Below, piece after piece: positions 43,078 to 44,160 of a stretch of DNA of 64,000 nt. A program made the translations under genes and the position numbers. The first letter of the stretch is position 1; the number at the start of each line of letters is the position of its first letter. A model generated the notes under the pieces. That model was not told the DNA's origin, did not search any database, and saw only the letters and a list, made by a program, of their open reading frames with translations. The DNA lies in the NCBI RefSeq assembly GCF_055900595.2, contig NZ_JBVWEU010000002.1, one strand, 5' to 3'. This DNA comes from a plasmid.

Positions 43078-43269
43078 TCACCTGTTTCTGCTGCCCTGAA
43101 GGATATAGTGACCACCGAGGAAAACCGCCTGCTGATTCACCACAAAATCGCAGATTTCATCAACAATCTGCGCAGTGGTGAGCGGTTTCTGCCCCATTTC
43201 ACGACGCCGCGCATTAATCACGGCTTTGTAATTGCGCAGAATTTCGCGGGTTTCTGTGCTGATATTCAT
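43078..43269 (-). CDS. Hypothetical small protein (63 aa)
   Basis: ORF track. 4-nt overlap with the upstream 140-aa ORF suggests translational coupling. Confidence 0.45.
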   Translation of the reverse strand: MNISTETREILRNYKAVINARRREMGQKPLTTAQIVDEICDFVVNQQAVFLGGHYILQGSRNR

Positions 43270-43688
43270 GACATGTTCTCCCCGTCCAGCGCCTGTAACA
43301 CAACGTCCATCGCTTCGCGTTCTTCCCTGACGAATGCGTCACCGTCGCCCCCGTTCTCACTCCCGACGGCATACAGGCGCTTCATTTCACTGCCTGCCAG
43401 CGCCATCACTTTTTCCAGCATCACCGCCGGGACTGTCACCTGACGGCTGGCGCGCTTTTCTTCCATCAGTTCACGAACAACGTCGTGAACAACGCTGACA
43501 TCCGCACCATGCTCAAAGGCATCGTCCAGCCGCTGCATGACGGTTTCCAGCTCATCGTCTGACAGGTTCCAGTCCTGGGCTATGTGACGCACATCCCCAC
43601 GGGTCAGCACCACGGCAAAAACGCATTCACTGTCCGGCACGTCTGTATCCAGCACTTCGCGGATAATTTCTTTAACAGTACAGTACAT
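43266..43688 (-). CDS. Hypothetical acidic protein (140 aa)
   Basis: ORF track. Operon-like spacing with the 141-aa ORF upstream. Confidence 0.55.
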   Translation of the reverse strand: MYCTVKEIIREVLDTDVPDSECVFAVVLTRGDVRHIAQDWNLSDDELETVMQRLDDAFEHGADVSVVHDVVRELMEEKRASRQVTVPAVMLEKVMALAGSEMKRLYAVGSENGGDGDAFVREEREAMDVVLQALDGENMS

Positions 43689-43734
43689 GTTCTCGTCTCC
43701 TTTACAGGGGCGGCATTGCCGCCCCGTCCGTTAA

Positions 43735-44160
43735 TCAGTCCAGAGCCGCGTAAATCGCGTTGCATTCAGGGTGAAATTCGATGTGACGCCACAACTGCGC
43801 ATCGCGCATCCGGTAAAGCTGGGTCAGTCCTGCATCCCCGCTGTCGTGGTACAGCCACAACTGGCGGTTAATCACAAGGGAAGTCAGAATTATGCCTGCG
43901 GCATCAGCACTCACGGTACGGTCAAACCAGTTTGCACCGTTCACCATGTGGAAACGGTCACCGTCCGGCATCATGTAACCACCACCGTCCGGCAGGCGGA
44001 TGAAGTGCCAGAAGCCACCCTGATATTCCGGCATCATTTTTTGCGCCAGCGCGTACACATACGCCTCGGCATACAGAAAATCGTTGCCAAACAGGTAAGG
44101 CAGAAAAGACAGACGGTCGCACTCTTCAACATTCAGAGTGACAGGTTTCGCATACTGCAT
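43735..44160 (-). CDS. Leading-region protein, tentatively antirestriction (ArdB/KlcA-like), 141 aa
   Basis: Size and position typical of ArdB/KlcA-type genes. Family call is from memory and not verified. Confidence 0.4.

What the first reader, a model, noticed from the sequence alone, without database searches (positions are those of the whole stretch)
43078..44160. Three-gene operon (141, 140 and 63 aa) at the distal end of the leading region
The genes are tightly coupled (4-nt overlap between the last two) and sit directly downstream of the long inverted-repeat hairpin element. The first is tentatively ArdB/KlcA-like and the other two are unknown acidic proteins. Small acidic proteins here often act as DNA mimics or inhibitors of host defence or SOS.
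Basis: inference. Interest (0 to 1): 0.55.

Follow-up and report, generated by a model that had tools for sequence, protein, structure and literature searches.

The report
F-plasmid ArdB/KlcA early anti-restriction operon
This is the already known three-gene anti-restriction operon of F-like plasmids (ArdB/KlcA, a DUF1380 protein and a 63-residue protein), switched on from a single-stranded-DNA hairpin promoter just after the plasmid enters a new cell; only the last two genes still lack a known function.

Summary
The three ORFs exist at the stated coordinates, all on the minus strand: 43735-44160 (141 aa), 43266-43688 (140 aa) and 43078-43269 (63 aa). The last two overlap by 4 nt (ATGA).

- **Gene 1** is a firm ArdB/KlcA anti-restriction protein (Pfam PF03230, E 1.9e-26; KlcA structure 2kmg, E 1.8e-18).
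- **Gene 2** is a DUF1380 protein. It is acidic (pI 4.35) and all-helical, with no informative fold match.

The cassette is 97-98% identical in protein to that of classical F. It occurs in at least 5000 plasmid records, including IncI plasmids.

A 238-nt hairpin lies upstream on the transferred strand (44197-44434). It is conserved across seven lineages, with 23 of 53 pairs showing compensatory changes. It matches the published ssDNA promoter called class 2, Frpo3 or ssp2.

Published work shows that this operon is induced early in transconjugants, that the hairpin stalls complementary-strand synthesis, and that deleting it lowers transfer into restriction-proficient hosts.

All three genes are under purifying selection. 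The ArdB-DUF1380 pairing holds at 33-38% identity, and the third gene persists in some lineages.

Verdict: a real but already described feature. The residual interest is the unknown role of the two downstream proteins.

The parts
44197..44434 (+). Hairpin on the + strand, which is the transferred strand and the template for the operon. It is the homologue of the F-plasmid ssDNA promoter called class 2, Frpo3 or ssp2. The stem is 44197-44253 paired with 44382-44434. A -35-like TTGCAT lies at 44389-44394 and a -10-like TAAGAT at 44410-44415, with a 3-nt mismatch bubble inside the -10. The predicted transcript start is near 44209 on the minus strand.
   Evidence: Inverted repeat of 30 nt, 90% complementary. 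DNA fold of -73 kcal/mol, z -4.0. Pair table. The upstream stretch 44161-44700 aligns to F at 92% mean column identity, and the hairpin block is nearly invariant. Across 7 lineages, 94.2% of cells are paired, 23 of 53 pairs are compensatory, 0 of 500 shuffles reach this, and slid controls give 29-38%. The conserved motif is single-copy in the window and occurs once per locus upstream of klcA on the template strand. Function is taken from PMC12672017, bioRxiv 10.1101/2025.04.03.647016 and bioRxiv 10.64898/2026.01.09.698686.
43735..44160 (-). Gene 1, 141 aa: ArdB/KlcA-family anti-restriction protein. Its names in other records are yubI, yfgB in F and yfeB/ardB in R64.
   Evidence: Pfam Antirestrict PF03230, E 1.9e-26. 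PDB KlcA 2kmg E 1.8e-18 over the full length, and ArdB 2wj9 E 3e-7. PHROG anti-restriction family, E 9e-20. 98% identical to the F protein, dN/dS 0.04-0.27. Annotated 'antirestriction protein YubI' in matching plasmids.
43707..43725 (-). Short G+C-rich RNA stem-loop (GGGGCGGC-AAU-GCCGCCCC) in the 46-nt spacer between genes 1 and 2. No U-tract follows, so it is probably not a terminator.
   Evidence: the 66-nt stretch that holds it folds at -22.3 kcal/mol, z -2.4.
43266..43688 (-). Gene 2, 140 aa: DUF1380-family protein (yubJ / yfeC). It is acidic and all-helical, and its function is unknown.
43078..43269 (-). Gene 3, 63 aa: small basic protein (yffA in IncI-type annotation) with no family. It is translationally coupled to gene 2 by an ATGA overlap.
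   Evidence: ORF and overlap. A 47%-identical homologue (E 1e-20) keeps the same 4-nt overlap in a distant lineage, L005. Homologues of 63-65% identity occur in L012 and L014. dN/dS 0.07-0.26. AlphaFold2 model with pLDDT 80.2: two helices plus a beta-hairpin. No significant PDB fold or sequence match.
42968..43072 (-). Three consecutive RNA stem-loops immediately after the stop codon of gene 3. The last is a 44-nt stem followed by CGUUUGUG. This is the likely 3' end or terminator region of the operon.
   Evidence: RNA fold of -77.8 kcal/mol, z -4.0; sequence.
42328..42660 (+). Neighbouring element, not part of this operon: a large hairpin on the transferred strand upstream of ssb. The orf63-to-ssb spacer that contains it aligns to the same spacer of F at 93% mean column identity, and that spacer holds Frpo2.
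   Evidence: DNA fold of -197.6 kcal/mol, z -8.1; alignment to F; Frpo2 described in PMC9849209.

Best explanation
This is the ardB/klcA early-establishment operon shared by F-like and IncI-like conjugative plasmids. In other records the genes are called yubI/yfgB/yfeB, then yubJ/yfeC, then yffA.

**How it works**
1. During conjugation the + strand of the window enters the recipient as single-stranded DNA, starting at oriT near 35 kb.
2. Once about 9.5 kb has entered, the inverted repeat at 44197-44434 folds into a long hairpin. Its stem rebuilds a -35/-10-like promoter, with a small bubble in the -10.
3. Host RNA polymerase starts near 44209 and transcribes the three genes from the still single-stranded template, ending at the stem-loops at 42968-43072.
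4. The promoter shuts off when the complementary strand is made. No conventional double-strand promoter was found.
5. According to published work on F, the same hairpin also stalls complementary-strand synthesis until UvrD resolves it. This prolongs early expression.

**What the products do**
- Gene 1 (ArdB/KlcA) blocks type I restriction in vivo by an indirect mechanism that is not DNA mimicry.
- Genes 2 and 3 are real, conserved, co-transcribed proteins of unknown function.
- My committed guess, at about 35-40%, is that they are further early-acting anti-defence or host-manipulating factors. They would work by binding proteins or nucleic acids: an acidic helical DUF1380 protein and a small basic partner made in step with it through translational coupling. 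I do not think they are needed for ArdB activity.

**Shown here:** ORFs, coupling, purifying selection, family membership, hairpin covariation and near-identity to F.
**From the literature:** ssDNA transcription, the roadblock, the deletion phenotypes and ArdB activity.
**Inferred:** the roles of genes 2 and 3.
For: - **ORFs and coupling:**
- **ArdB/KlcA membership:**
- **Context:** traM, psiA, psiB, ssb, sopB and sopA are identified.
- **Match to F:** the cassette is 97-98% identical in protein to F. Its upstream stretch aligns to F at 92% mean column identity, with the hairpin block nearly invariant.
- **Spread:** at least 5000 plasmid records carry it. An IncI-gamma/K1, MOBP, MPF_I plasmid carries KlcA-YfeC-YffA.
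- **Hairpin:** z -4.0. 94.2% of cells paired, 23 of 53 compensatory pairs, 0 of 500 shuffles. Eleven G:T wobble cells on the + strand against one possible on the other strand. TT of the -35 and TAnnnT of the -10 are invariant.
- **Motif:** one copy per locus, always on the template strand upstream of klcA.
- **No double-strand promoter:** no sigma-70-type site in 42300-45050.
- **Selection:** dN/dS below 0.5 for all three genes.
- **Synteny:** Antirestrict followed by a DUF1380-like gene is kept at 33-38% identity. The third gene is kept in L005, L012 and L014.
- **Literature:**
  - PMC12672017 reports the klcA operon induced in transconjugants of F and pESBL, a class 2 hairpin promoter, and 5'RACE start sites for the six pESBL promoters.
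  - bioRxiv 10.1101/2025.04.03.647016 describes Frpo3.
  - bioRxiv 10.64898/2026.01.09.698686 reports that ssp2 drives yfgB (93% identical to R64 ArdB) and acts as a roadblock. Deleting ssp2 lowers transfer 21-fold to undetectable into natural E. coli strains, 36-fold against EcoGIII and 5-fold against EcoKI.
  - PMC2836571 and PMC10149784 show ArdB/KlcA activity against type I systems.
Against: - No experiment was done on this window, and transcription from ssDNA cannot be tested with these tools.
- The -35-like and -10-like boxes are weak (TTGCAT and TAAGAT) and only 15 nt apart, so the generic promoter scan does not call them.
- Covariation of an inverted repeat would also fit an RNA structure or a palindromic protein-binding site. 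Only the wobble asymmetry and the published data favour the ssDNA reading.
- For genes 2 and 3 there is no homology to any characterised protein, so their proposed role rests on context alone.
- The third gene is missing or decayed in some lineages.
- klcA or ardB deletions had no detectable effect in two other plasmids (PMC11602122).
Confidence: 0.8

Rival explanations
1. One reading: the DUF1380 protein is a DNA-mimic anti-restriction protein like ArdA or Ocr. It would occupy the DNA-binding groove of restriction enzymes or other DNA-binding defence proteins.
For: It is strongly acidic (pI 4.35, net -17 over 140 aa), and the acidity is conserved across the family, with pI 4.3-4.6 in most full-length members. 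It sits in anti-restriction operons, behind both ArdB and the orphan methylase.
Confidence: 0.1
2. Genes 2 and/or 3 are cofactors of ArdB/KlcA. They would be the missing 'third player' invoked to explain why ArdB works in vivo but poorly in vitro, forming a complex that blocks type I enzymes.
For: The adjacency of Antirestrict and a DUF1380-like gene is kept with 41-67-nt spacers in every lineage examined, down to 33% identity. PMC10149784 explicitly proposes an unknown third participant. PMC2836571 found no inhibition in vitro.
Against: ArdB and KlcA proteins cloned alone give strong anti-restriction in E. coli (PMC2836571 Table 2; PMC10149784), so no plasmid partner is required. IncP klcA is followed by the unrelated klcB and korC. 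DUF1380 paralogues also sit in the methylase operon without ArdB.
Confidence: 0.15
3. The 63-aa basic protein is a DNA-binding regulator that controls this operon or other leading-region genes. It would be analogous to KorC at the end of the IncP klcA-klcB-korC operon, or to the Aca proteins of anti-CRISPR operons.
For: It is small and basic, with pI conserved at 8.6-10.4. It is the last gene of a klcA operon, like korC. The model is two helices plus a beta-hairpin, and several of the weak Foldseek hits are winged-helix domains.
Against: No Foldseek hit is significant (best E 2.1). There is no homology to KorC and no HTH Pfam match. An ssDNA promoter is switched off by strand conversion and needs no repressor. 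The gene is absent from some lineages that keep the hairpin.
Confidence: 0.15
4. Genes 2 and 3 form a toxin-antitoxin-like pair, with an acidic upstream antitoxin and a small basic downstream toxin joined by an ATGA overlap. The pair would stabilise the leading region.
For: The gene syntax and charge pattern resemble type II toxin-antitoxin pairs. The leading region already carries the hok/sok-type flm locus.
Against: There are no matches in PADLOC or NCBIfam. DUF1380 genes often occur without the small gene. Expression is transient and from ssDNA, which does not fit an addiction module.
Confidence: 0.04

Closest known systems
F plasmid (NC_002483) cassette at 56755-57837 (antirestriction YubI/YfgB, DUF1380 YubJ, 63-aa hypothetical) with its upstream ssDNA promoter ssp2 / Frpo3 / class 2
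   Same: Same three genes in the same order, with the same 4-nt overlap. The proteins are 98, 97 and 98% identical. The upstream stretch aligns at 92% mean column identity with the hairpin block nearly invariant, and the downstream spacer to ssb aligns at 93%.
   Different: In F a methylase-YubE-DUF1380-258-aa operon lies between sopC and this cassette. Here that operon is missing, and the cassette abuts a shortened sopC.
R64 (IncI1) ArdB = yfeB, the experimentally studied anti-restriction protein, with its neighbours yfeC and yffA
   Same: The R64-style gene names yfeC and yffA are used for the same cassette in an IncI-type plasmid whose YffA is 100% identical to the window's. R64 ArdB is yfeB (PMC10149784). 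F YfgB is reported as 93% identical to R64 ArdB (bioRxiv 10.64898/2026.01.09.698686). R64 ArdB inhibits type IA, IB and IC systems in vivo, but not BREX or type III (PMC10149784).
   Different: I could not fetch R64 itself, so the 93% figure is taken from the preprint. The backbone is different: MOBP/MPF_I against MOBF/MPF_F.
IncP-1 kilC operon klcA-klcB-korC
   Same: The first gene is homologous (KlcA 2kmg, E 1.8e-18). The three-gene layout, ending in a small protein, looks alike.
   Different: KlcB (402 aa) and KorC (85 aa) show no similarity to the DUF1380 protein or the 63-aa protein (hhalign probabilities 0.2 and 0.5). As I recall, the IncP operon is driven by a repressed double-strand promoter (own knowledge; Larsen and Figurski 1994, cited in PMC11602122).
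Frpo1/Frpo2 (class 1) ssDNA promoters of F and ssi1-3 of ColIb-P9
   Same: A long hairpin on the transferred strand that rebuilds -35/-10 boxes and drives leading-region genes (PMC9849209). One such element (42328-42660) lies just downstream of this operon.
   Different: The hairpin in front of this operon belongs to a separate sequence class (PMC12672017). Its conserved motif occurs only once in the window.
DNA-mimic anti-restriction proteins ArdA and Ocr
   Same: They are plasmid or phage proteins made early, acidic, and directed against type I restriction.
   Different: ArdB/KlcA is not a DNA mimic (PMC2836571). The DUF1380 model shows no ArdA- or Ocr-like fold, and the third protein is basic.

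Membership tests
ArdB/KlcA anti-restriction proteins (Pfam PF03230) | Significant match to the family profile | tested here: met
   PF03230 E 1.9e-26, residues 45-141 on model positions 2-92 of 92; PHROG anti-restriction family E 9e-20.
ArdB/KlcA anti-restriction proteins (Pfam PF03230) | Full-length similarity to the solved members (KlcA 2kmg, ArdB 2wj9) and a single-domain size of about 140 aa | tested here: met
   2kmg E 1.8e-18 over residues 5-141; 2wj9 E 3e-7 over residues 11-141; protein length 141 aa.
ArdB/KlcA anti-restriction proteins (Pfam PF03230) | Relieves type I restriction in vivo with little anti-modification activity | not testable with these tools
   Inferred from homologues. 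Five of six tested ArdB/KlcA genes gave more than 10-fold relief against all four type I families (PMC2836571). R64 ArdB is reported as 93% identical to the F protein (PMC10149784; bioRxiv 10.64898/2026.01.09.698686).
DUF1380 (Pfam PF07128) | Match to the family profile | tested here: met
   The query match is weak and partial (E 1.7e-4, residues 1-99). However, 13 of 20 aligned relatives match at E<=0.001, best 2e-50.
DUF1380 (Pfam PF07128) | Same predicted fold as annotated members | tested here: met
   Foldseek against AFDB50: 41 hits at E<=0.001, nearly all annotated DUF1380, down to 20-28% identity.
Class 2 ssDNA promoter (ssp2 / Frpo3) | Long hairpin on the transferred strand immediately upstream of ardB/klcA, homologous to the F element | tested here: met
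   for the hairpin. The upstream stretch aligns to F at 92% mean column identity, with the hairpin block nearly invariant. Covariation across 7 lineages.
Class 2 ssDNA promoter (ssp2 / Frpo3) | -35 and -10 boxes rebuilt in the stem | tested here: inconclusive
   TTGCAT, a 15-nt spacer and TAAGAT, with TT and TAnnnT invariant in 7 lineages and a bubble inside the -10. The spacing and hexamers are too far from consensus for the generic scan.
Class 2 ssDNA promoter (ssp2 / Frpo3) | Transcription starts on single-stranded DNA in the recipient, and the element stalls complementary-strand synthesis | not testable with these tools
   Published for F and pESBL (PMC12672017; bioRxiv 10.64898/2026.01.09.698686).
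DNA-mimic anti-restriction proteins (ArdA / Ocr) | Elongated fold displaying DNA-like rows of acidic residues, with structural similarity to ArdA or Ocr | tested here: not met
IncP kilC operon (klcA-klcB-korC) | Second and third genes homologous to klcB and korC | tested here: not met
   hhalign probabilities 0.2 and 0.5.
Type II toxin-antitoxin pair | Match to a known toxin or antitoxin family | tested here: not met
   No PADLOC, NCBIfam or Pfam toxin or antitoxin hit.

The most novel reading that the evidence does not exclude
The DUF1380 protein and the 63-aa basic protein could form a previously unrecognised early anti-defence module that acts on something other than type I restriction.

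- In F, deleting the hairpin promoter lowers transfer 36-fold against the type II system EcoGIII. A promoter swap restores this, so a product made downstream of the promoter is responsible (bioRxiv 10.64898/2026.01.09.698686).
- ArdB-family proteins are reported to act on type I systems only (PMC10149784; PMC11602122).
- DUF1380 is expanded to as many as four paralogues per leading region and always sits in methylase or ArdB operons. This is the pattern expected of an arms-race inhibitor family.
Probability: 0.25. Interest if true: 0.6.

Novelty: already known. Interest (0 to 1): 0.3.

Why it matters
The operon is part of the first-minutes programme that lets F-like and IncI-like resistance plasmids survive restriction in a new host, and it sits on thousands of clinical plasmids. 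That programme, its hairpin promoter and its first gene are already described. What remains open is the role of two conserved, co-transcribed proteins, DUF1380 and the 63-aa protein. If they prove to be inhibitors of host defences, they would add a new and very widespread anti-defence family and help explain the published promoter-deletion phenotypes.

Tried and rejected
- **NCBIfam and PADLOC** gave nothing useful for any of the three proteins.
- **PDB sequence searches**, with single sequences and with profiles, gave only chance-level hits for genes 2 and 3.
- **Fold searches** were uninformative:
  - Foldseek on the 63-aa model had a best E of 2.1.
  - AFDB50 returned only other DUF1380 proteins.
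- **Homology to IncP KlcB and KorC** was tested and rejected.
- **Rfam** found no RNA family inside the operon, only sok at 37955-38126.
- **The generic promoter scan** found no sigma-70 site in 42300-45050.
- **Literature:**
  - One search was wasted on the word-start match 'yubi'.
  - Whole-word searches found no functional study of DUF1380, yubJ, yfeC or yffA.
- **Failed look-ups:** NC_004840, AP005147 (R64) and KP125892 (pHS10842) are not in the collections. As a result I could not verify the 93% identity to R64 ArdB or compare with KlcAHS.
- **tblastn against plasmids** saturated at 5000 near-identical hits and gave no distant relatives.
- **A covariance-model scan** for further class 2 hairpins was replaced by a conserved-motif search.
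Full report
**Observation.**
All start with ATG. The last two share the sequence ATGA, a 4-nt overlap. The first two are 46 nt apart, with AAGGAG seven bases before the second start codon.

The computed isoelectric points are 5.03, 4.35 and 9.62. These charge properties are conserved in both families.

**Context.**
NCBIfam identifies these genes, all on the minus strand:
- TraM at 34422-34805
- PsiA at 38228-38947
- PsiB at 38944-39381
- a ParB-like protein at 39433-41457
- plasmid SSB at 41754-42320
- SopB at 45011-45982
- SopA at 45982-47157

Rfam finds sok at 37955-38126. The 43-bp sopC repeats lie at 44729-44945. The window is therefore an F-type plasmid with oriT near 35 kb, and the three genes are the leading-region genes farthest from oriT.

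Because every leading-region gene is on the minus strand, the + strand is their template. By the established geometry of F transfer, it is also the transferred strand. This last step rests on prior knowledge and is in line with PMC11541004 and PMC9849209.

**Identity with known plasmids.**
4993 records cover at least 80% of the query at 90-100% identity. Their annotation reads 'antirestriction protein (YubI) | DUF1380 family protein (yubJ) | hypothetical protein'.

Classical F (NC_002483) carries the same cassette at 56755-57837, followed by ssb. The three proteins are 98, 97 and 98% identical to those of the window. An IncI-gamma/K1 plasmid (MOBP, MPF_I) carries KlcA-YfeC-YffA in the same arrangement, and its YffA is 100% identical. 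So the cassette is shared between different conjugation backbones.

Unlike F, the window lacks the methylase-YubE-DUF1380-258-aa operon between sopC and the cassette. Only a remnant homologous to the 3' end of the 258-aa gene remains, at about 44520-44700.

**Gene 1.**
- The protein matches Pfam Antirestrict (PF03230) at E 1.9e-26.
- It matches the NMR structure of KlcA from pBP136 (2kmg) at E 1.8e-18 over its whole length.
- It matches ArdB 2wj9 at E 3e-7.
- It matches a PHROG anti-restriction family at E 9e-20.
- Its dN/dS against six other lineages is 0.04-0.27.

ArdB/KlcA proteins relieve all four type I families in vivo. They do not act as DNA mimics and barely work in vitro (PMC2836571; PMC10149784). 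The ArdB studied in the latter paper is R64 yfeB. The F homologue (yfgB) is reported as 93% identical to it (bioRxiv 10.64898/2026.01.09.698686).

**The hairpin.**
- An inverted repeat (44199-44228 with 44403-44432, 90% complementary) lies upstream of gene 1.
- Folded as DNA, the + strand forms a stem of 44197-44253 with 44382-44434. The fold is -73 kcal/mol with z -4.0.
- The arm distal to the gene, read 5' to 3', carries TTGCAT (44389-44394), a 15-nt spacer and TAAGAT (44410-44415). A 3-nt mismatch bubble sits inside the second hexamer.
- The other arm runs on into the template of gene 1. A transcript would therefore start near 44209 and carry a leader of about 49 nt.

I aligned the equivalent upstream regions of seven lineages whose KlcA proteins are as little as 41-48% identical. 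On that alignment:
- 94.2% of cells are paired.
- 23 of 53 pairs show compensatory double changes.
- No shuffle out of 500 reaches the observed values.
- Sliding the partners by 1-3 columns drops pairing to 29-38%.
- Eleven cells are G:T wobbles on the + strand, whereas only one mismatch would become a wobble on the other strand. This favours a structure formed by the transferred strand.
- TT of the first hexamer and TAnnnT of the second are invariant.

The conserved motif occurs once in the window, and once per related locus, always on the template strand upstream of klcA. No ordinary sigma-70 promoter was found between 42300 and 45050.

**Published function of the hairpin.**
The upstream stretch aligns to its F counterpart at 92% mean column identity, and the hairpin block itself is nearly invariant. 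That element has been described three times under three names:
- **Class 2 ssDNA promoter.** It lies upstream of klcA and ardA in pESBL, where 5'RACE start sites were mapped, and its homologue is marked on F. The klcA operon is induced in transconjugants of both plasmids (PMC12672017).
- **Frpo3** (bioRxiv 10.1101/2025.04.03.647016).
- **ssp2.** It additionally stalls complementary-strand synthesis until UvrD resolves it (bioRxiv 10.64898/2026.01.09.698686).

Deleting ssp2 lowers F transfer as follows:
- 21-fold to undetectable into E. coli HS, B, IAI1 and ED1a
- 36-fold against EcoGIII, rescued by swapping in another ssDNA promoter
- 5-fold against EcoKI, not rescued by the swap

**Gene 2.**
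- The Pfam match to DUF1380 is weak for the query (E 1.7e-4).
- 13 of 20 aligned relatives match at E<=0.001, best 2e-50.
- A full scan of 1.84 billion representatives finds only 132 relatives, about a dozen of them full-length at 30-64% identity.
- The AlphaFold2 model has pLDDT 80.6 and six helices. It matches essentially only DUF1380-annotated proteins in AFDB50.
- No paper in the library reports a function for it.

**Gene 3.**
- It has no Pfam, NCBIfam, PADLOC or PDB match.
- It is nevertheless a real gene. A 58-aa homologue in a distant lineage is 47% identical (E 1e-20) and keeps the 4-nt overlap with its DUF1380 neighbour.
- Salmonella lineages carry versions 63-65% identical.
- Substitutions are conservative, and dN/dS is 0.07-0.26.
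- The model (pLDDT 80.2) is two helices and a beta-hairpin. No Foldseek hit is significant, although several weak ones are winged-helix domains.

**Operon conservation.**
- In every lineage examined, an Antirestrict gene is followed after 41-67 nt by a YubJ-like DUF1380 gene. This holds down to 33% identity.
- In one Salmonella lineage there are two such genes in tandem before the 63-aa gene.
- A second, more canonical DUF1380 clade follows an N6/N4 methylase and YubE in the neighbouring operon. This gives up to four DUF1380 genes per leading region.
- The third gene is present in L005, L012 and L014, decayed in L003 and absent in L008.

After gene 3 come three strong RNA stem-loops. The last is followed by CGUUUGUG, a plausible operon end. 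The stem-loop in the spacer between genes 1 and 2 has no U-tract.

**Mechanism and rivals.**
The best-supported account is the published one. The hairpin on the incoming strand recruits RNA polymerase, and the three genes are made before the plasmid is double-stranded. ArdB then blocks type I restriction, and strand conversion switches the operon off.

The roles of genes 2 and 3 are inferred from context only. I favour independent early anti-defence or host-manipulating functions (about 35-40%) over these rivals:
- **ArdB cofactors.** ArdB works alone in vivo, and IncP klcA has unrelated neighbours.
- **A DNA mimic.** No fold support was found.
- **A KorC- or Aca-like regulator.** There is no homology, and an ssDNA promoter needs no repressor.
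- **A toxin-antitoxin pair.** There are no family hits, and DUF1380 often stands alone.

**Novelty and score.**
The feature is real and biologically important, but it is already annotated on thousands of plasmids. Its promoter, timing and first gene were described in 2025-2026. The remaining unknown is the function of two conserved proteins, and the published EcoGIII phenotype makes that question testable. Interest is 0.3, and the novelty class is 'already known'.

Noticed in passing
window 42866-42900: An (AAG)n trinucleotide repeat of about 11.7 copies lies in the spacer between the operon's end and the ssb hairpin. It reads as (CTT)n on the gene strand. It differs from F by a 12-nt indel and several point changes, so it behaves like a length-variable microsatellite.
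   Followed up: partly
window 44729-44945: sopC here has only about four to five 43-bp repeats. As I recall, classical F has twelve (own knowledge).
   Followed up: no
window 44435-45010, compared with L002 (F) 5927-10755: The methylase-YubE-DUF1380-258-aa operon that lies between sopC and klcA in F is absent. Window 44520-44700 still aligns to the 3' end of the F 258-aa gene, which suggests a deletion.
   Followed up: partly
window 42328-42660: A very stable hairpin on the transferred strand lies upstream of ssb (fold of 42321-43077 is -197.6 kcal/mol, z -8.1). The orf63-to-ssb spacer that holds it aligns to the same spacer of F, which contains Frpo2, at 93% mean column identity.
   Followed up: partly
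L012 477-3986; L014 1073-4092: DUF1380 genes are multiplied in Salmonella-type leading regions: two in tandem after the methylase and YubE, and one or two after ArdB. That gives up to four per plasmid.
   Followed up: partly
proteins P0126, P0050, P0010, P0001: Public databases hold chimeric or duplicated versions of genes 2 and 3. Examples are a DUF1281 N-terminus fused to YffA or to YubJ, an ArdB C-terminus fused to YubJ, and an internal duplication of YubJ. These point to recombination or frameshifts among leading-region genes.
   Followed up: no
window 41754-42320: The mechanical ssb ORF is 188 aa, but the SSB family profile aligns from residue 14. The true start is therefore probably 39 nt downstream, giving 175 aa as annotated in related plasmids.
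   Followed up: no
window 37955-38126: A sok antitoxin RNA (Rfam RF01794, 92.6 bits) belongs to the flm/hok locus between psiA and the genes proximal to oriT.
   Followed up: no
L003 5429-5658: In one distant lineage the third gene survives only as a C-terminal fragment (MLDEICESATRQCAVYLCGHFILQG...). This indicates decay of the small gene while ArdB and the DUF1380 gene stay intact.
   Followed up: partly
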